DNA of 54,653 bases from a virus. The stretch spans positions 1-54,653 of IMG/VR virus record IMGVR_UViG_3300029132_000006; one strand, given 5' to 3'. Positions 8,808 to 35,845 of the stretch are shown piece after piece (the stretch's first letter is position 1; each line of letters begins with the position of its first letter). The notes beneath the pieces were generated by a model. It saw only the letters and a program-made list of their open reading frames with translations. It was not told the DNA's origin and did no database searches. Both the position numbers and the translations under genes were made by a program.

Positions 8808-9914
8808 TTATTCGACAACTAACTGGAACTTGTCGATTGCATTACCCATAACGCCTGCATATCCGTCCATTCCGTTGGATGTTTTATCATCTATCTGCTC
8901 TGGGTAGAAGTTGCGGTTGTTGAATACAGATACCATATACTTAGCATACTTCCAAGGCTCACCCTCTGGTGTGTAGTAGATGATTTCTACGGCATCTATC
9001 GGTGTTTTCTGGTCACCCGCAAAGCCGTTGTTGAAATCATTATAATTGAAATCTGTAACATAAGGAAGCCAATCACCATTAAGTGTATGAACTCTGTACT
9101 TAACTGAACCTCTGCTGACCTTAATAATAAGTGCTGTGATAGCTTTATTGTCGCCTGCACCAGCCCAATCTTCTCTGTCCTCTACTTCACCCCACCAACG
9201 GTCTGTATAAGCGGCATATGTAGCATATACGTGTTCATCTGTGCTATCCTCTGTGTTATCTTCTTCGCTGTTATCCTCTGTGTTATCTTCATCATTATGA
9301 AAGCCATAGAATACAGACAAGTCGCAAACTCCGTCTACTCCATCTACAACACCGCTTGATGTATACTGCCAGCCTACAAGGTTTCTAGCAACACTAGGCT
9401 TCTTATCTTCGTTAGGGTCTGTATCAAGTGTCATTTCATCATATCCAAGATAGTACCTTGCTATCCAGTAATCGCAGTTAAGAATTTCTTCGTCTGCATA
9501 TGGGGCAATGTAACTGCCATACCACGCCATACCTGTATAGATACCAAACTCGTAGCCAGCTTCCTCTATTGTGTGCTTGTACGCCTTAATTATGTCGATA
9601 AGGTCTGACCCTAAATTTTGCATACAAGTATCTTCTATATCCATCCACACCTTAACTTTACGTCCGTCAAGCACCTCTAATACCCTTTTAGCCGCCGCAA
9701 TAGCTTCTTCTACTGTTGGTGTGTAAACATAATTGTATACACCGCAGATATGCACACCTGCTAACTGACAGCCTTTCCAGTTGTTGTCAAACTGCTTATC
9801 TGGGTCAAAATCACGTCTGATAACCTTAAGAATAGCGTGAGTAAGTCCTGCCGCCTTAACTCTGTTCCAGTCAACTACACCATTCCACGCTGAAAAATCT
9901 CCACATTTAATCAT
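8808..9914 (-). CDS. Endolysin: GH25 muramidase N-terminal domain, acidic linker, and an unassigned C-terminal binding domain.
   Basis: DFSAWNGVVDWNRVKAAGLTHAILKV...GVYNYVY...DIED...GWQYTS pattern of GH25 lysozymes. Last gene of the late operon. Confidence 0.8.
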   Translation of the reverse strand: MIKCGDFSAWNGVVDWNRVKAAGLTHAILKVIRRDFDPDKQFDNNWKGCQLAGVHICGVYNYVYTPTVEEAIAAAKRVLEVLDGRKVKVWMDIEDTCMQNLGSDLIDIIKAYKHTIEEAGYEFGIYTGMAWYGSYIAPYADEEILNCDYWIARYYLGYDEMTLDTDPNEDKKPSVARNLVGWQYTSSGVVDGVDGVCDLSVFYGFHNDEDNTEDNSEEDNTEDSTDEHVYATYAAYTDRWWGEVEDREDWAGAGDNKAITALIIKVSRGSVKYRVHTLNGDWLPYVTDFNYNDFNNGFAGDQKTPIDAVEIIYYTPEGEPWKYAKYMVSVFNNRNFYPEQIDDKTSNGMDGYAGVMGNAIDKFQLVVE

Positions 9915-10260: not shown

Positions 10261-13200
10261 AATTACTTAGTTGCTTTTCTAATTTTTTAATACGCATATT
10301 CTGCGATTGTACAGTCGCAACTAAATCCGCTATTAATTCATCATAGCGTAATGCGTATCTTGCTGTTAGTTCTTTAGTTGTATTTCCGTTTTCGTCTGAG
10401 ACTTGTGTTTCGTAGTTATCATTATTAATCTTTTTATCGATAAATAATCCCCAGTCATCTTTCATAGTTTCTTTAACCTGCTGTGCAATAAATCCGTGAT
10501 GGTAGCGATTAGAAGTACCGTTAATCATTTTAAATTCGCAAGGTTTTAAATTGTAGATAAATTCAGAAGAGTCTTCTGAATTCAATAAATGAACATCTTT
10601 TTTTACGTTCTCGTCTGAATCAGAAGCGATTGTTCCATAAATTGACCCGAAACATCGCAAATCATATCCTATGTATGTACTTCCATATACTGACAGTTCA
10701 CAGTTCTCGTAGTGTCTGTCCTCTGTATTTGTAATTCTGACATTTTGTGTGTCTTTTCCCGAATTTGGATTATAGCAATATACTGTAAGTGTCGTTGGTT
10801 TTTTAATATTGTCTTGGTAACCGCCATTCATCGAAATATTGGGCGAAAAAAACTCTAATGATTTGTTTAAATCGTCGTTTATTCTTATAATGAATTCGTA
10901 TTCCGTATTTTCTGTTTTATTCTTAGTGCAATTTATTCCGACAACATCTCCATAATCTGCATTGAGCACTAAAGCTCTTCTTACTTCATTATTGCTAGTA
11001 TAGTATCTTGTTGTAGTTATCGAACCTACATAATTTTCGTAATCGTCGACCCAAGAATAGAATTTAATGTAATTTTGGTCTATCGACATTCCTTTAATTC
11101 CATTATTTTGATATGTCGACAATATACCATTATCAATTGAGAAATTGCCAATTTGACCTTTAGAAGCATACATATATCCATCCGCACGAACGTACCAATT
11201 ACCATAATATGCCCCATCTCTTTCTTCTTGGCAAGAGAATGTCCAAGCTTCGGAATTAGCGGGTGCCTGTATATAAGTTCTATATTTGCCGTAATCTTTA
11301 TAGATAGAAGACTTGCTGATGTCCCAGCCTCCAATCGTGCCAGACGAAAAATAGCCGCTTCCTGTAATTTGTGCGTTAGTTGCATATAGTTTACCAGTTT
11401 GACTTATATAAAAATTAGGACTTTTGCTGTATCCCTCATCTTCAGTTCCGTGAAAAACCGAAAAAACATATGGTGTAATATCACCAGGTATTTGTAATGC
11501 AATTCTGAATAAGTCATTATTCTGCTTAAATATTGTACTTATTGAATCTTTAGACACTTTCCAGCCGCCAACGTTTCCGCCGTTGGCAATCAGATTGCTA
11601 CAAGTTATAGTTCCGTCTGCTGTAATGCTGGCGTTCGTGCTGTTTAATGTAAACCTGTTGCCACTTAAATTAAGCCCACCCCTTGCAGTAATATTTATTG
11701 TATCTGCAATAGCTTCGATAGCACTCTTAAGCTCGCCTGTTTTAGGGTCTTTTTTGATATATAAATCAAGGCTTGTTTTAGTTGCATAACTTTCTAAATC
11801 GCTTGACTTAGCGTAAGTTCCACTAAGCGCCAAACTAATACTTGAACCATTATCATTAATTTCCTGCGTAATTTTGTTAATCATAGTAGTTGTTGTACTA
11901 TAATTATCTGTCAGATTTTTCTTTGTCTGTGTTAATTCTGTTGATATGCTATTAAGATTAATCTTAAGACTAGCGTTTTGATTAAGCATATAAGCTAATT
12001 GTGTGTTAGATACCTCTTTCCAACCCCAATTACCTTTATCATCTTTAGCCCAACGCCAAGTTTTTTGAGCTGTTTCGTTGTATGCTATCGCTCCGCGATG
12101 TTTAGCATATTCATCATTGCTGTAAGTCCAAGTAAGATTATCACTTGGAAATAAATCGTCTGACGGATATATGGATATGAACCAGTCAACGGCTGGATAA
12201 TTATCTTTTGTAGGCGTTGCTGTTACTGTATACACCATAAAATTATCGTTCGTTTGTTGGTATAAGTCAGATAATGTTATTTCGTAGCTATCTAGCTTCT
12301 GATTAACAGTAGAAAACTTAGTCTGAATGCTTTCAGTATCAACATTGCTAGTCCACCACAACTTGTTAGTGATAAAATCACTAGCAACTTTCATCATACC
12401 GCCCCATTGAGTATAATCTTTGCCAGCACCACTTGTTATAGCTTGCATAATGACATTAAGTGTCTGTCCCTCGTTGTCCAGATAAATTTTATTGCTCTTA
12501 AGTGTATGGGTGTTATCGTTATTGATAACACTAAATAGTGTTTCAATATCCAGCTTGCTTGCATTGATATTAGCATTATCTTGAACAACATCATCACGAA
12601 CAACTTTCCTCGTAACACCTTTTTCAGTAAGTCCTAAGGCATCAAACATAAGATTGCCAGCTTTATCCCAGACATACATATTGTAGTCCGAATTAGCGTC
12701 TTTACCTATTTGAACTCTTATTCTGTCAGTATCTTTGATGATAATTGTATTGTCTTGCCAATAAGACATTCCATTTTCACTATGAACCTTAAATTTAGTA
12801 GTGTTAAGGTCAAGTGCTGTAATCTTGCTTGCAGCTATGCTGTCAATCATAGCGTCTTTAATCTGTGCATTGCCGATAACACTTACAACTGCATTAGCGA
12901 ATTCTGTTGTTAAACTTTTACCTGTCGCAGAACCAAACATTAAGGTCTTAATGTCTGCTACATCTGCATTTAACACGCCTACCTGTGCATAATCTGCTTG
13001 TAACTTAGCGATATTAGCTTCATTAATTGTAGCTTTACTTGCTGTCAAATTAACAATATCTGCTGTAATAGCTTCAATCTTATTAGCCTTTAATTGGTCG
13101 ATATACGCTTGATGTGCTTTTAAACTCTCAATATTAGCACTAGTTATATCGGCATTTTCGATAACTGCCTTGTTGATTAAGACTAAATCAGCGTAGTATC

Positions 13201-33159: not shown

Positions 33160-34113
33160 TCACTCCTTACTTTCGCACCAACTGCTCTTACAAGTGTGGT
33201 TCATAATATTAATCAAAACCTTTTCAGAAGAAAAGTGAACTAAGCTGTAATCACATTGTGCTGAAAACTTTGTATTGAAATATTCATCAACTAACATCTT
33301 GTAGTCTGTATTATCGTCCATATCACTTATAGCCGCATAATAGGTATCTGTATATCCGTCACGCTCTATGTCGGTTTCTTTTGTTAAATTATCTACCACT
33401 CTTGATAGAACCTTGTCCGTTAATGGGTAATGATATTTCCCAGTACATTCTCCGTGTTTATCTAAAAAGTATTTAAAGAATGCTTCTACATTTTCTTTGA
33501 GCGTTTTATCATTAGTCCAATCATAAGCTATCTTGCCAGCTCTACTTATCATTCTTTCCTCGGCAACTTCCCAATCACTTTGAGAGTATTCGCTTATCGG
33601 CTTAAACTCTTTCGCTTTTTTATCTTTGGGTAAAAAAGAATTGCACTGTTCTCTGTTAAGAGAATTACTTTTAGTATTTAATTCATTAGTATTTTGTATA
33701 TTAATATTTAATTCATCAGTACTTAATTCATTAGTATTTAATTGTCCGTGGTTTTCTACCTGTTGACATTCAACCCCTAGATTTTCTGTATCTTGTTTTT
33801 CTATTTTCTGTTTATATGGTTCTTCGTAAACCTCGTAGGTGTACTTTATTCTTCCACCATTGCTTTTTGTCGGGTTTTCCTTAGTAACCACAACATAATT
33901 ATTATCCCTTAACTCATTTAAAGCCGATTTAACAGCTGTTTCATTCTCTTTACTTATTGCAACTAACCCAGCTATTGAATAATCCCAATTATCGGGCAAT
34001 GAAAGCATTACAGACAATAATCCTTTTGCTTTCAAGCTTAAGCTCTTATCCCTTAAATGAGTATTACTCATAACTGTGTAATTTTTTGTTTTATGCACTC
34101 TGATTGTTGCCAT
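33160..34113 (-). CDS. Winged-helix DNA-binding protein, replication-initiator-like, carrying internal iteron-like DNA repeats.
   Basis: N-terminal YTVMSNTHLRDKSLSLKAKGLLSVMLSLPDNWDYSIAGL...ALNELRDNNYV pattern seen in Firmicutes Rep/DnaD-like wHTH proteins. Three copies of TAATTCATYAGTA lie at about 33679-33740. Confidence 0.5.
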   Translation of the reverse strand: MATIRVHKTKNYTVMSNTHLRDKSLSLKAKGLLSVMLSLPDNWDYSIAGLVAISKENETAVKSALNELRDNNYVVVTKENPTKSNGGRIKYTYEVYEEPYKQKIEKQDTENLGVECQQVENHGQLNTNELSTDELNINIQNTNELNTKSNSLNREQCNSFLPKDKKAKEFKPISEYSQSDWEVAEERMISRAGKIAYDWTNDKTLKENVEAFFKYFLDKHGECTGKYHYPLTDKVLSRVVDNLTKETDIERDGYTDTYYAAISDMDDNTDYKMLVDEYFNTKFSAQCDYSLVHFSSEKVLINIMNHTCKSSWCESKE

Positions 34114-34236
34114 ATTGAATACCTCCGCTTGATATTATTTATGTATGCCTGTGATACACACTCCGCTTAATCAATAAAAACAACAAACAGGCACAGCGGA
34201 AGTGCTTTTCGGTCTGCATCACCTAGTTTGTTGTAA

Positions 34237-34308
34237 TCGGATAGACAGGACTTGAACCTGTGACTACTTGAATAAATCAAGCGTTACTCCCAACTGAACT
34301 ACTATCCG
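34237..34308 (-). tRNA. tRNA with anticodon UUA (reads UAA; suppressor-type), or a degenerate tRNA.
   Basis: Hand fold: acceptor CGGATAG/CTATCCG plus A73; anticodon stem GCTTG/CAAGT; loop ATTTATT; T-arm ACAGG-TTCAAGT-CCTGT. Atypical features are an imperfect D-stem (GTTC...GTAAC) and U at position 37. Confidence 0.55.
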
Positions 34309-34746
34309 TCAACTTGTAAGAATTTCTGACAAGTTGAAATAAAAAAGACTAGCACAGAGAGATTAAACAATTCACATTTATAAATCACTTTGGAGGTCAT
34401 TTATACGCTTAAAAATATTGTTTTGAGTGGATATAAAGTGCTAGTCTTAACAGCAGTATAGGCTATGACACCTATAACAGGTCGTGGCAAAGCTGGATGG
34501 AAGTGATTACGCCCGTGCAGTTTGGCTGTTCAAAGAAAGTGGCTTCGCTCGCTGTCTATCCCTTAAGGATAACTGCTGATTATGAAATATTTGAAATAAT
34601 TACTACGCATATTTGTGTGGGATATGCGTAAAACCTCACGGACTTTCTGACGGTCCTTAACAGCTCTTGCTATGAGGTGAAAGGAGAACTTAATGCTAGT
34701 AAACCAATAAGTCCTGTAAAGGCACAAGTGTAATTAAACACTTGAA
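34309..34746 (-). ncRNA. ORF-free, helix-rich 438-nt spacer between two tRNAs; a candidate large structured ncRNA.
   Basis: At least nine helices of 5-11 bp can be drawn, including nested long-range pairs (listed in the findings). No credible ORF on either strand. Confidence 0.35.
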
Positions 34747-34818
34747 CTACCCCTGTGGGATTTGAACCCACGATACAGGAATCAAAATCCTGTGCCTTGA
34801 CCACTTGGCTAAGGGGCA
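34747..34818 (-). tRNA. tRNA-Gln (anticodon UUG).
   Basis: Hand fold: acceptor TGCCCCT/AGGGGTA with U1-A72 and G73 (Gln-like); anticodon arm CAGGA-TTTTGAT-TCCTG; T-arm GTGGG-TTCAAAT-CCCAC. Confidence 0.8.
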
Positions 34819-34823
34819 ATATG

Positions 34824-34994
34824 CTATTCTTTTGTTTCAAAGAGTACTGCATTTTTATTTGCTGTTTCAAGCTCTGTGAAGTTATCCTTGCCTTTTACAA
34901 CATTTGGATTGCCATTACAGGCATTACAAGGCTTTTCACAATATAACTTATGTCTATGTTTGCACTGGTAACAGTGCTTATCCTGATTACCCAT
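34824..34994 (-). CDS. 56-aa Cys-rich mini-protein (MGNQDKHCYQCKHRHKLYCEKPCNACNG...), translationally coupled to mazG.
   Basis: The ATG overlaps the mazG stop (TAATG). It ends 5 nt before tRNA-Gln. Confidence 0.4.
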   Translation of the reverse strand: MGNQDKHCYQCKHRHKLYCEKPCNACNGNPNVVKGKDNFTELETANKNAVLFETKE

Positions 34995-35410
34995 TATTTA
35001 TCACCTGCCTGTCTGTGATTAGCTCTGTAAGTGTCAAAACCGTCCGGATAACGTGCTATAAGTTTATCTATGTTTGTCTGCATTACATCATCAAGATTAA
35101 AACCGCAAGCTTCACAAATCATAGCAACGTACCATAAAACATCGCCACACTCTTTCTTAAGATGTTCTAAGTCTATGCCTTTTTCGTGGAATATACCCTT
35201 TTTAACAAGGTCTGATACTTCTCCAGCTTCACCAGTTAAGCCTAAGACACCATTAAGAAGTCCTGCTATGTCATTTATGTTGCTACACTTAGCATTGCTT
35301 TCTGCTAGAGGGCTAAGCGAAAACTTACCAGTCAATTCAGTACTTAATCTATGATGAGCCATTTTATCGTTAGTACGCATTGCCAATTTTTGGTATTCAT
35401 TGCCCTGCAT
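34994..35410 (-). CDS. mazG: MazG-like nucleotide pyrophosphohydrolase.
   Basis: YQKLAMRT...LTGEAGEV...ECGDVLWYVAMICEACGFNLDDVMQTNIDKL, the all-alpha NTP-PPase pattern. Confidence 0.8.
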   Translation of the reverse strand: MQGNEYQKLAMRTNDKMAHHRLSTELTGKFSLSPLAESNAKCSNINDIAGLLNGVLGLTGEAGEVSDLVKKGIFHEKGIDLEHLKKECGDVLWYVAMICEACGFNLDDVMQTNIDKLIARYPDGFDTYRANHRQAGDK

Positions 35411-35845
35411 TTATAACTCCTAACTCTTTTTCTGTTTTTTAAAATTTTTTGGAATTTATTCAGCCGACTAGCTGATTCTCTGATGTGTTTATTGAATATC
35501 TTGTGATTAATTAATATGTGTCTATTATACACCTAATTAGCTTAAATGTATAGATGTTAATTGGATTATTTTTAATTAAATATATAAGTGATTTATTAGT
35601 ATTAATTATATGATTAATAGTTAGGTATTATTTATATATAATTATATAATATGTGTATTATGTGGTGATAATAATATAAATATATATTAATATATAAGGG
35701 CTTTTTGTTATTTTGGATAATTGAGCGACTTAGTTGGGGCGTGTTCCGGAGGTAAATAAACCCCCTCCGCCCTTATCCGTGTAATCGTGTCTATTTTATG
35801 CCATATTCTCAAACAATTAACACAATTAACACAATATCCATACAA

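What the first reader, a model, noticed from the sequence alone, without database searches (positions are those of the whole stretch)
34309..34746. 438-nt ORF-free, helix-dense spacer sandwiched between two tRNAs: candidate large structured ncRNA
**No coding signal.** Neither strand has a credible ORF here. The only track ORFs overlap the tRNA genes.

**Helices.** Read on the minus strand (the transcribed one), the spacer can be drawn with many helices:
- 34744-34738 with 34731-34725 (7 bp, directly after tRNA-Gln);
- 34678-34673 with 34638-34633;
- 34630-34622 with 34612-34604 (9 bp);
- a long-range pair 34578-34572 with 34457-34451 (7 bp);
- nested inside that pair, 34556-34552 with 34480-34476, 34548-34542 with 34493-34487 (7 bp), and 34475-34471 with 34462-34458;
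- an 11-bp pair 34448-34438 with 34355-34345, followed by a U-run;
- an 8-9-bp hairpin 34336-34329 with 34317-34310, abutting the 5' end of the UUA tRNA.

**Context.** Large ornate RNAs of unknown function (the ROOL and GOLLD classes) are characteristically found in Firmicutes prophages next to tRNA genes. This locus has the same context but is shorter, so it may be a different or new class.
Basis: partly seen in the sequence, partly recalled or inferred. Interest (0 to 1): 0.7.

Follow-up and report, generated by a model that had tools for sequence, protein, structure and literature searches.

The report
Structured RNA spacer in phage tRNA array
The 437-base gap between two tRNA genes of this gut phage is a real, conserved, non-coding folded RNA made of separate modules, one of which is a small three-armed motif, absent from Rfam, that sits at the head of tRNA clusters in hundreds of related phages.

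Summary
The spacer (34309-34745, minus strand) has no conserved ORF. It folds better than all 100 shuffles (z = -4.4).

It is not ROOL, GOLLD, raiA, a group I intron or an HDV-like ribozyme; no Rfam family matches it. It is also not one indivisible large RNA. Related human-gut phages show a mosaic of modules:

1. **Three-way junction (34634-34677).** It follows a single-stranded, anti-Shine-Dalgarno-like CCUUUC. It occurs once per array, almost always 40-73 nt after tRNA-Gln, in more than 200 contigs, a lemur phage and Bacillota MAGs. In 65 distinct sequences 99.9% of cells pair, and 10 of 13 pairs show compensatory changes.
2. **Four-way junction (34451-34578).** It is confined to one lineage, and its covariation support is weaker.
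3. **Long hairpin plus U-run (34337-34448).** It exists in three compensating sequence versions.
4. **Hairpins flush against both tRNAs.**

Most likely the spacer is cut out of the tRNA precursor by RNase Z and RNase P as a stable RNA. Its function is not established. The three-way-junction motif appears undescribed. Interest is moderate.

The parts
34746..34819 (-). tRNA-Gln (anticodon UUG), no encoded CCA. It starts 5 nt after the stop codon of the upstream 56-codon ORF.
   Evidence: ARAGORN; Rfam tRNA 66.3 bits; sequence.
34725..34744 (-). Hairpin A (CAAGUGU/ACACUUG), starting 1 nt after the tRNA-Gln 3' end.
   Evidence: MFE. The alternative class-1 version GCAAGUA/UACUUGC also pairs. In 125 of 142 distinct tRNA-Gln trailers a hairpin starts 0-3 nt after the tRNA.
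34686..34714 (-). Hairpin A2 (GGACUUA/UAAGUUC), ending directly at the CU-rich tract.
   Evidence: MFE. The other class-1 version has GAACUUA/UAAGUUC. Analogous hairpins precede the CU tract in the other classes.
34678..34690 (-). CU-rich tract AGUUCUCCUUUCA. The CCUUUC core is nearly invariant, and most relatives read CCUCCUUUC, identical to the anti-Shine-Dalgarno core of the 16S rRNA 3' end.
   Evidence: Alignments A4 and A7. Mean unpaired probability 0.60, against 0.44 for all positions.
34630..34677 (-). Three-way junction followed by UUUU: P1 CCUCAU/GUGAGG, P2 AGC/GCU, junction GUUAA, P3 GGAC/GUCC.
   Evidence: CM R1, 80.9 bits, the single copy in the window. 99.8-99.9% of cells paired, with 9 of 15 and 10 of 13 pairs showing compensatory changes.
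34604..34630 (-). Hairpin B (UACGCAUAU/AUAUGCGUA).
   Evidence: MFE. Compensating versions ACGUGU/ACACGU and GCGUAUU/AAUACGC: 3 pairs changed on both sides.
34451..34578 (-). Four-way-junction domain: closing helix CAGCAGU/ACUGCUG, hairpin UAUCC/GGAUA, and a long arm (GACAG/CUGUU, then GCGAAGC/GCUUUGC, then an apical hairpin with conserved loop AACUGCAC) that carries conserved internal loops, plus hairpin AUAGG/CCUAU.
   Evidence: CM R2, 165 bits. 47 distinct sequences, 91.9% paired, 6 of 31 pairs compensatory. The 70%-identical L067 type folds on its own into the same architecture.
34337..34448 (-). Domain D: an 11-bp long-range helix (34438-34448 with 34345-34355) encloses an AU-rich rod whose apical loop shows GACCUCCAAAG. 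It is followed by UUUUUUAUUU and is terminator-like.
   Evidence: MFE. Three sequence versions keep a 10-16-bp outer helix (7-8 bp in two of 22 variant groups), followed by a U-run of 4-7 U in all but one sequence (L055). The terminator scan does not call it because the loop is too large.
34310..34336 (-). Hairpin E (CAACUUGU/ACAAGUUG), ending 1 nt before the 5' end of the UUA tRNA.
   Evidence: MFE. Present in the relatives where tRNA-Sup directly follows. No covariation available.
34237..34308 (-). tRNA with anticodon UUA (would read the UAA stop codon), no encoded CCA.
   Evidence: ARAGORN; Rfam tRNA 51.6 bits. UUA and UCA alleles occur in the same tRNA body.
34165..34233 (-). int-alpA RNA motif (flanking context, not part of the spacer), upstream of the HTH_36 replication-initiator-like gene at 33160-34113.
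   Evidence: Rfam RF02996, 46.1 bits against a gathering score of 35.8; Pfam and PHROGs.

Best explanation
The spacer is a transcribed, non-coding, modular structured RNA that forms part of a polycistronic phage tRNA precursor.

**Shown.**
- It contains a widely conserved three-way-junction (3WJ) motif preceded by an exposed CCUUUC tract.
- It also contains a hairpin (B), a lineage-specific four-way-junction (4WJ) domain, and a long hairpin with a U-run.
- Stable hairpins lie flush against the 3' end of tRNA-Gln and the 5' end of the next tRNA.

**Inferred.**
- Both flanking tRNAs lack an encoded CCA, and there is no room for promoters between the elements.
- The spacer is therefore probably released by the ordinary tRNA-processing enzymes: RNase Z after the tRNA-Gln discriminator and RNase P at the 5' end of tRNA-Sup.
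- That would leave an RNA of about 437 nt, or sub-fragments, whose ends are protected by hairpins A and E against RNase J1 and 3' exonucleases.
- This resembles the stable RNAs encoded in the T4 tRNA cluster and the tRNA-spacer-derived small RNAs of E. coli.
- The conserved functional core would be the CU tract plus 3WJ. The 4WJ and domain D would be add-on domains.
- The most likely activity is sequence-specific binding through the displayed anti-Shine-Dalgarno-like C/U-rich loops (CCUCCUUUC, GACCUCC). The partner would be purine-rich RNA or a protein, so this would be a phage regulatory RNA made together with its tRNAs.
For: **Structure and conservation.**
- MFE z = -4.4.
- No conserved ORF.
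- 3WJ: one copy per array in 78 of 80 related loci. It is also in Dulem virus 39, in more than 120 further IMG/VR contigs and in 9 Bacillota genome contigs. 99.9% of cells pair, 10 of 13 pairs show compensatory changes, and slid controls pair at 35-47%.
- 4WJ: the same architecture forms in sequences only 70% identical, including a base-pair insertion in one helix.
- Domain D: three compensating versions keep the U-run.

**Transcription and processing.**
- tRNA-Gln starts 5 nt after an ORF stop, all genes are co-oriented, and no convincing promoter or terminator lies inside the spacer.
- A hairpin starts 0-3 nt after tRNA-Gln in 125 of 142 distinct trailers, although its sequence differs between classes.

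**CU tract.**
- CCUUUC stays invariant while the neighbouring helices covary.
- It is more often unpaired than the average position.

**Precedents.**
- Structured RNAs next to phage tRNAs are known: ROOL and GOLLD (PMC12286853) and theta ribozymes (PMC10879173).
- From my own knowledge: the T4 species 1 and 2 RNAs and E. coli 3'ETS-leuZ.
Against: - No expression or end-mapping data exist. Processing by RNase Z and RNase P is inferred only from the anatomy.
- Domain D looks like an intrinsic terminator. If it works as one, it would cut off the downstream tRNA. That fits a regulatory cis role better than simple excision.
- The modules recombine independently, so 'one 437-nt RNA' may not be the functional unit.
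- The 4WJ domain alone folds only marginally better than shuffles (z -0.8 to -2.0). Its covariation rests mainly on one divergent lineage.
- The anti-Shine-Dalgarno resemblance is a sequence observation. No target was identified.
Confidence: 0.45

Rival explanations
1. The spacer is a cis-acting control element for transcription through the array. The CU tract plus 3WJ, placed at the head of the array, would act like a nut/put-type processive antitermination signal or as part of an attenuator. It would govern read-through of the terminator-like domain D and of the int-alpA hairpin. This would gate expression of the downstream tRNAs, including the potentially toxic stop-codon-reading tRNA, and of the replication gene.
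For: - The 3WJ always lies upstream of the variable part of the array.
- Domain D keeps a strong stem and a U-run in three sequence versions and sits immediately before the next tRNA, with no room for a promoter.
- int-alpA, a stem plus U-run, follows tRNA-Sup.
- The 4WJ's highly conserved internal loops lie directly before a terminator-like stem, which resembles an aptamer followed by an expression platform.
Against: - The 3WJ follows the first tRNA rather than preceding it.
- The U-tract after the 3WJ is not conserved.
- Array classes 2 and 3 lack both the 4WJ and a clear U-run terminator.
- No alternative (antiterminator) pairing was found.
- No antiterminator protein was identified nearby.
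Confidence: 0.2
2. The spacer is processing scaffold or evolutionary debris of a fast-evolving tRNA array. The helices would be leader and trailer hairpins and degenerate tRNA-derived folds. The 4WJ, with its 7-bp closing stem next to a 5-bp hairpin, would mimic the acceptor/T-arm stack. Such structures would persist only because they help RNase P, RNase Z or exonucleases mature the neighbouring tRNAs, with no independent function.
For: - The arrays are extremely mosaic.
- Other spacers contain tRNA-like genes with long insertions that ARAGORN misses.
- The 4WJ has tRNA-like helix lengths and no linkers.
- Hairpins abut the tRNA ends.
Against: - Debris would not keep invariant single-stranded sequences (CCUUUC, GUUAA, AACUGCAC, ACUUUCUUUG) while the helices covary across distant phages.
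- The Rfam tRNA model and ARAGORN give no signal in the 4WJ, even at E <= 10.
- The 3WJ is kept once per array across phages whose terminases are only 55% identical.
Confidence: 0.17
3. The spacer is a single large ornate RNA in the manner of ROOL or GOLLD. The whole 437 nt would fold as one unit, possibly multimerising.
For: - The genomic setting is the same.
- Helix density is high and the MFE z-score is strong.
Against: - No Rfam similarity.
- The spacer is shorter than GOLLD, many members of which exceed 800 nt (PMC12286853), and shorter than ROOL (several hundred nt, from my own knowledge).
- No inter-domain pairs are supported.
- Close relatives delete or replace whole domains.
Confidence: 0.06
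4. The spacer contains a self-cleaving ribozyme that matures the tRNA 3' end, either theta/HDV-like or a new class residing in the 3WJ.
For: - Theta ribozymes sit within +/-5 nt of phage tRNA 3' ends in gut phages (PMC10879173).
- The 3WJ has an invariant U.G pair at the junction and an invariant GUUAA strand.
Against: - The element abutting the tRNA is a plain 7-bp hairpin with a 6-nt loop. That is incompatible with an HDV-like nested double pseudoknot.
- No HDV, hammerhead, twister, pistol or hatchet hit at E <= 10.
- The 3WJ lies 40-73 nt from the tRNA end and lacks the junction strands of a hammerhead.
Confidence: 0.04
5. The spacer is a decayed or recoded protein-coding gene.
For: - Short ORFs exist.
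- A tRNA reading the UAA stop codon is adjacent.
Against: - ORF frames and extents are not conserved, and indels are not multiples of three.
- Reading TAA as sense does not open a frame.
- The phage genes use TAA as a normal stop codon in 32 of 68 ORFs.
Confidence: 0.01

Closest known systems
ROOL and GOLLD large ornate RNAs (Rfam; PMC12286853)
   Same: Non-coding, highly structured RNAs of unknown function, encoded by phages and prophages, often next to or inside tRNA islands.
   Different: - No sequence or structure similarity (the Rfam covariance models give nothing).
- The spacer is 437 nt and modular. Many GOLLD members exceed 800 nt (PMC12286853); ROOL is several hundred nt (my own knowledge).
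- No evidence of pseudoknots or of a single global fold.
- Domains are gained and lost between close relatives.
Theta (minimal HDV-like) ribozymes next to gut-phage tRNAs (PMC10879173)
   Same: Structured RNA immediately 3' of tRNAs in gut Caudoviricetes, often beside suppressor tRNAs. tRNAs next to theta ribozymes mostly lack an encoded CCA, as here.
   Different: - No HDV-like double pseudoknot and no catalytic-C architecture.
- The conserved motif lies 40-73 nt from the tRNA end.
- Hosts here are Bacillota; about 90% of theta-ribozyme hosts are Bacteroidota.
Stable RNAs and small RNAs derived from tRNA-operon spacers (T4 species 1 and 2 RNAs; E. coli 3'ETS-leuZ). Cited from my own knowledge.
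   Same: RNA encoded between or after tRNAs in one transcript and released by the tRNA-processing enzymes. This is the mechanism proposed here.
   Different: No sequence relationship. Release and stability are not shown here. This spacer is larger and multi-domain.
int-alpA RNA motif (Rfam RF02996)
   Same: A described phage-associated RNA motif present in the same locus (34165-34233). It passes the Rfam gathering score.
   Different: It lies outside the spacer, after the second tRNA, and is unrelated in sequence and structure to the spacer modules.
Bulk catalogues of candidate structured RNAs from IMG/VR and human microbiomes (PMC10690425, PMC8040213)
   Same: Same data sources and same type of object: short covarying intergenic motifs in gut phages, including tRNA-like ones.
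   Different: I could not establish whether the 3WJ or the 4WJ is among the unnamed candidates. The supplements of PMC10690425 are not held. The first 200 of 408 files of PMC8040213 contain neither signature sequence.

Membership tests
ROOL (Rfam) | Match to the ROOL covariance model. | tested here: not met
   No hit at gathering score in the whole window or at E <= 10 in 34000-35000.
ROOL / GOLLD | Encoded in a phage or prophage near tRNA genes. | tested here: met
   The window is a temperate siphovirus-like phage with integrase, terminase, portal and tape-measure genes. The spacer lies between two tRNAs. The contextual criterion comes from PMC12286853.
GOLLD (Rfam) | Match to the GOLLD covariance model; many members exceed 800 nt. 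| tested here: not met
   No Rfam hit. The element is 437 nt.
raiA RNA / group I intron (Rfam) | Match to the family covariance model. | tested here: not met
   No hit at E <= 10.
Theta / HDV-like ribozyme | Cleavage site within +/-5 nt of the tRNA 3' end, with P1 strands separated by P2/P3 (nested double pseudoknot) and a catalytic C in J4/2. | tested here: not met
   The element at the tRNA end is a simple 7-bp hairpin with a 6-nt loop. No HDV-family hit. The descriptor comes from PMC10879173.
tRNA / tRNA-like element (for the 4WJ domain) | Cloverleaf with a D loop, T loop and anticodon loop recognised by ARAGORN or the Rfam tRNA model. | tested here: not met
   ARAGORN finds only the two flanking tRNAs. 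No tRNA-clan hit in 34451-34578 at E <= 10.
tRNA / tRNA-like element (for the 4WJ domain) | A 7-bp closing stem coaxial with a 5-bp hairpin (acceptor/T-arm-like 12-bp stack). | tested here: inconclusive
   The helix lengths fit (6-7 bp plus 5-6 bp, no linker) in four independent folds. The loop lacks the T-loop consensus and no CCA or discriminator context exists.
Intrinsic (Rho-independent) terminator (for domain D) | G+C-rich stem immediately followed by a U-run. | tested here: met
   11-bp stem followed by UUUUUUAUUU. The stem and U-run are kept in three sequence versions.
Intrinsic (Rho-independent) terminator (for domain D) | Short loop (3-8 nt), as in the consensus scan. | tested here: not met
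   The stem encloses about 83 nt. The scan finds no terminator in 33900-35500.
tRNA-operon spacer-derived stable RNA (T4 species 1/2, 3'ETS type) | Encoded between tRNAs on the same strand, with no promoter of its own. | tested here: met
tRNA-operon spacer-derived stable RNA (T4 species 1/2, 3'ETS type) | Released by RNase P, RNase Z or RNase E, and accumulates as a discrete RNA. | not testable with these tools
   Needs RNA-seq, Northern blots or end mapping.

The most novel reading that the evidence does not exclude
The CU tract plus 3WJ is a new class of phage RNA that displays a mimic of the 16S rRNA anti-Shine-Dalgarno tail (CCUCCUUUC) on a rigid three-way junction. It would be made together with tRNA-Gln at the head of hypervariable tRNA arrays rich in suppressor tRNAs. 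It would act in trans by occupying Shine-Dalgarno sites or a ribosome-associated or defence factor. Alternatively, it would act as an RNA-only antitermination signal that licenses expression of the array. The 4WJ and domain D would be lineage-specific effector or sensor domains.
Probability: 0.12. Interest if true: 0.8.

Novelty: new variant of a known kind. Interest (0 to 1): 0.55.

Why it matters
Phage tRNA clusters are increasingly seen as tools for counter-defence and for reprogramming translation. The known structured RNAs that travel with them (ROOL, GOLLD, theta ribozymes) are either functionally unexplained or tied to tRNA maturation.

This work defines a small, very well supported motif: the CCUUUC tract plus a three-way junction. 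It marks the head of hypervariable tRNA arrays in a large group of human-gut Bacillota phages. It also shows that the long 'spacers' in these arrays are conserved structured domains rather than filler.

The result gives concrete, short constructs (61 nt, 128 nt and 437 nt) for biochemical testing. It also gives a covariance model that can be used to annotate gut viromes.

Tried and rejected
**Known families and coding.**
- Rfam at gathering score on the whole window, at E <= 10 on 34000-35000, and at E <= 1 on six diverse loci carrying the motif. Only tRNAs and int-alpA were found.
- Coding: six-frame translation, TAA recoding and ORF conservation across 32 homologues. Rejected.
- HDV-like or theta ribozyme at the tRNA end, and a hammerhead reading of the 3WJ. 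Rejected on architecture.

**Searches for further homologues.**
- BLASTN against 50,697 deposited phage genomes found only tRNA-Gln similarity, so there is no close cultured relative.
- A pattern for the 4WJ core in GTDB genomes gave 0 hits. In IMG/VR, 12 of 115 hits were chance matches in coding DNA. In metagenomes, 1 of 40 was a chance match.
- CM R2 on 98 loci of other array types. The 4WJ is present in only 3, all class 1, so no distant homologues were found.

**Structure and partners.**
- The CM-based alignment did not re-register the divergent L067-type helices. I therefore judged them from independent folds and by eye.
- A pseudoknot between the CU tract and the P2/P3 loops, and pairing between the 4WJ loops and the 3WJ. 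No complementarity is consistent across classes (by inspection).
- A protein partner or RNA-repair genes near the array. None was found in the window. RtcB occurs only in Dulem virus 39.

**Literature.**
- Supplements of the two bulk catalogues of candidate structured RNAs were either not held or gave no match in the part that was searchable.

Full report
**Setting.** The window is a roughly 55-kb temperate siphovirus-like phage genome. It has 36% G+C and almost all genes lie on the minus strand. It encodes a terminase, portal protein, major head protein, tape-measure protein, endolysin and integrase. The nearest deposited relative is a lemur-gut virus whose terminase is 55% identical. ARAGORN and Rfam place tRNA-Gln(UUG) at 34746-34819 and a tRNA with anticodon UUA at 34237-34308, both on the minus strand. 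An Rfam int-alpA motif follows at 34165-34233, and then an HTH_36 replication-initiator-like gene. tRNA-Gln begins 5 nt after the stop codon of a 56-codon ORF that follows a MazG gene. The array is therefore embedded in a long co-oriented transcription unit.

**Checking the observation.** The spacer is 34309-34745, 437 nt. Its MFE is -110.3 kcal/mol, against -86.1 +/- 5.5 for dinucleotide shuffles (z = -4.4; none of 100 shuffles folds as well). Short ORFs of 23-54 codons exist, but none is conserved. Frames and lengths differ among 32 homologues, indels of 1, 7, 8 and 9 nt occur, and the most recurrent ORF is cut after six codons in the divergent L067 type. Reading TAA as sense does not open a frame. 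The phage uses TAA as an ordinary stop codon in 32 of 68 ORFs. Rfam gives nothing in the spacer at gathering score or at E <= 10.

**Homologues.** The downstream protein retrieved 80 IMG/VR loci. DNA patterns retrieved about 100 more from IMG/VR, 39 from human-gut metagenomes and 9 from Bacillota MAGs or contigs in GTDB. These phages carry an extraordinarily mosaic tRNA array: Gln, then optionally Tyr, Ser, Asn, Arg, Glu, Ile, Trp, Met, and so on, then often a stop-codon-reading tRNA. The sequence after tRNA-Gln falls into at least three classes among the first 80 loci, and more appear beyond them. Many close relatives share window positions 34439-34745, then carry tRNA-Tyr and tRNA-Ser where the window has 34310-34438. 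The spacer is therefore modular.

**Module 1, the CU tract plus three-way junction (34630-34690).** All classes share the same layout:
- a hairpin;
- a single-stranded (C)CUCCUUUC;
- helix P1 (CCUCAU/GUGAGG in the window);
- a short P2 hairpin;
- an invariant GUUAA junction strand;
- a P3 hairpin;
- the return strand of P1.

On a 32-sequence MAFFT alignment, 99.8% of cells pair and 9 of 15 pairs show changes on both sides. A covariance model (R1) finds exactly one copy in the window (80.9 bits) and one in each of 78 of 80 loci. It also finds one in Dulem virus 39, there after tRNA-Ser(UGA) (62 bits). On the model-based alignment of 65 distinct sequences, 99.9% of cells pair and 10 of 13 pairs have compensatory changes. 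With the 3' partners slid by 1-3 columns, only 35-47% pair. The inner U.G pair of P1, one G-C pair of P2, GUUAA and CCUUUC are invariant or nearly so. The U.G pair fixes the functional strand.

The motif lies 40-73 nt after tRNA-Gln in nearly all arrays. The apparent exceptions are preceded by tRNA-like genes that ARAGORN misses. No Rfam family touches it in six diverse loci. Host assignments of the genome hits are Lachnospiraceae, Hungatella, Bariatricus and other Bacillota. This agrees with the GGAGG ribosome-binding sites in the window.

**Module 2, hairpin B (34604-34630).** Three sequence versions all pair, and three pairs are changed on both sides.

**Module 3, the four-way junction (34451-34578).** Its parts are:
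- a 6-7-bp closing helix;
- a 5-bp hairpin;
- a long arm built from GACAG/CUGUU, an internal loop, GCGAAGC/GCUUUGC, a large conserved internal loop and an apical hairpin with loop AACUGCAC;
- a 5-bp hairpin.

There are no linkers at the junction. Model R2 finds it only in the class-1 lineage: 3 of 98 loci of other types, all class 1. Among 47 distinct sequences, 91.9% of cells pair and 6 of 31 pairs are compensatory. That count understates the support, because the 70%-identical L067 type is out of register in the alignment. Folded on its own, the L067 type gives the same four-way architecture with different helix sequences and one extra A-U pair inserted on both strands of one helix. The domain alone folds only slightly better than shuffles (z -0.8 to -2.0). 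Its reality therefore rests on conservation and on the parallel fold. The evidence is good but thinner than for the 3WJ.

**Module 4, domain D (34337-34448).** An outer helix of 10-16 bp in nearly all variants (7-8 bp in two of 22) encloses 60-118 nt and is followed by a U-run of 4-7 U in all but one sequence. It exists in three sequence versions: GACUAGCAC/GUGCUAGUC, GACUAGCAUUGU/ACAAUGCUAGUC and ACUGGCACUUUGU/ACAAAGUGUCAGU. Its apex displays another CCUCC. It looks like an intrinsic terminator with an oversized structured loop, and the consensus scan does not call it.

**Modules 0 and 5, the terminal hairpins.** Hairpin A starts 1 nt after tRNA-Gln. In 125 of 142 distinct trailers a hairpin starts within 0-3 nt, although its sequence differs between classes. 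Hairpin E ends 1 nt before the next tRNA.

**Mechanism.** What is shown is a non-coding, strand-specific, conserved, covarying and modular RNA structure within a tRNA transcription unit. The rest is inferred.
- Both tRNAs lack an encoded CCA. In Bacillota this implies RNase Z cleavage after the discriminator (established knowledge). RNase P must cut at the 5' end of the next tRNA.
- The spacer would thus be released with hairpins at both ends. That arrangement suits survival against RNase J1 and 3' exonucleases.
- The invariant single-stranded CCUUUC / CCUCCUUUC is identical to the anti-Shine-Dalgarno core of 16S rRNA. It is presented between two helices and is predicted to be unpaired more often than average.
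- Together with the CCUCC loop of domain D, this suggests binding of purine-rich RNA or of a protein.
- I rate 'excised stable regulatory RNA' at about 0.45.
- The main rival (0.2) is a cis role in transcription control, either antitermination or attenuation across domain D and int-alpA. This would neatly explain a terminator-like element placed just before a stop-codon-reading tRNA.
- A pure 'processing scaffold or tRNA-derived debris' reading (0.17) struggles with the invariant loop sequences.
- The ROOL/GOLLD-like single large RNA, ribozyme and coding readings are largely excluded.

**Comparison with known systems.** The context matches ROOL and GOLLD (PMC12286853) and theta ribozymes (PMC10879173). 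Membership tests for both fail. The proposed mode of biogenesis matches the T4 tRNA-cluster stable RNAs and E. coli tRNA-spacer small RNAs (my own knowledge), but it is untested here. Two bulk catalogues of candidate structured RNAs from the same data sources exist (PMC10690425, PMC8040213). I could not verify whether these motifs are listed there.

**Verdict.** Its interpretation is right in kind (a new structured non-coding RNA beside phage tRNAs) and wrong in unit (modules, not one large RNA). The most valuable product is the CU-tract plus three-way-junction motif, which appears undescribed and is very well supported. Interest is moderate (0.55).

Noticed in passing
window 34237-34308 (-); L006, L034, L036, L056 and others: The stop-codon-reading tRNA occurs as two alleles in an otherwise near-identical 72-nt body. 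The anticodon is UUA in the window and in most loci, and UCA (a single T-to-C change) in others. A third form keeps the acceptor, D and T arms but has a class-II anticodon and variable arm reading CAA or UAA. The window's own genes use TAA as a normal stop codon (32 of 68 ORFs), so there is no sign of genome recoding.
   Followed up: partly
related loci, e.g. L017, L029, L041, L046, L293 (second tRNA of the array): One tRNA body (CGGCATGTAGCTCAGTGGTAGAGCAGTCGGCT[NNN]AGCTGATTTG...) is found with anticodons ATT, AAT, AAC and AGT, all with A at position 34. The anticodon appears to be the variable part of a conserved scaffold.
   Followed up: partly
L243, L269, L270 (spacers after the 3WJ); L240, L257 (upstream of the 3WJ): These loci hold tRNA-like genes with a 7-bp acceptor stem and a canonical T arm (GGTTCAAATCC) but insertions of about 60-130 nt. 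ARAGORN does not call them, so 'long spacers' in these arrays partly hide unusual tRNA-like RNAs.
   Followed up: no
window 34165-34233 (-): The Rfam int-alpA motif (46.1 bits, gathering score 35.8) lies 3 nt after the UUA tRNA and about 50 nt before the replication-initiator-like HTH_36 gene. The same arrangement recurs in related loci such as L031.
   Followed up: partly
L338:1754-1889, L340:4668-4815 (Bacillota MAG contigs): Two tandem copies of the three-way-junction motif occur here. The upstream copy has the junction strand GACAA instead of GUUAA.
   Followed up: no
L236 (Dulem virus 39, PP511791) 9610-9671 and 11460-12665: In this lemur-gut phage the 3WJ follows tRNA-Ser(UGA), not tRNA-Gln. 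An RtcB RNA ligase gene lies 1.8 kb downstream. No RNA-repair gene was found near the window's array.
   Followed up: partly
window 34824-34994 (-): A 56-codon Cys-rich (zinc-ribbon-like) ORF ends 5 nt before tRNA-Gln. It has no Pfam match. It is conserved upstream only in the class-1 arrays.
   Followed up: no
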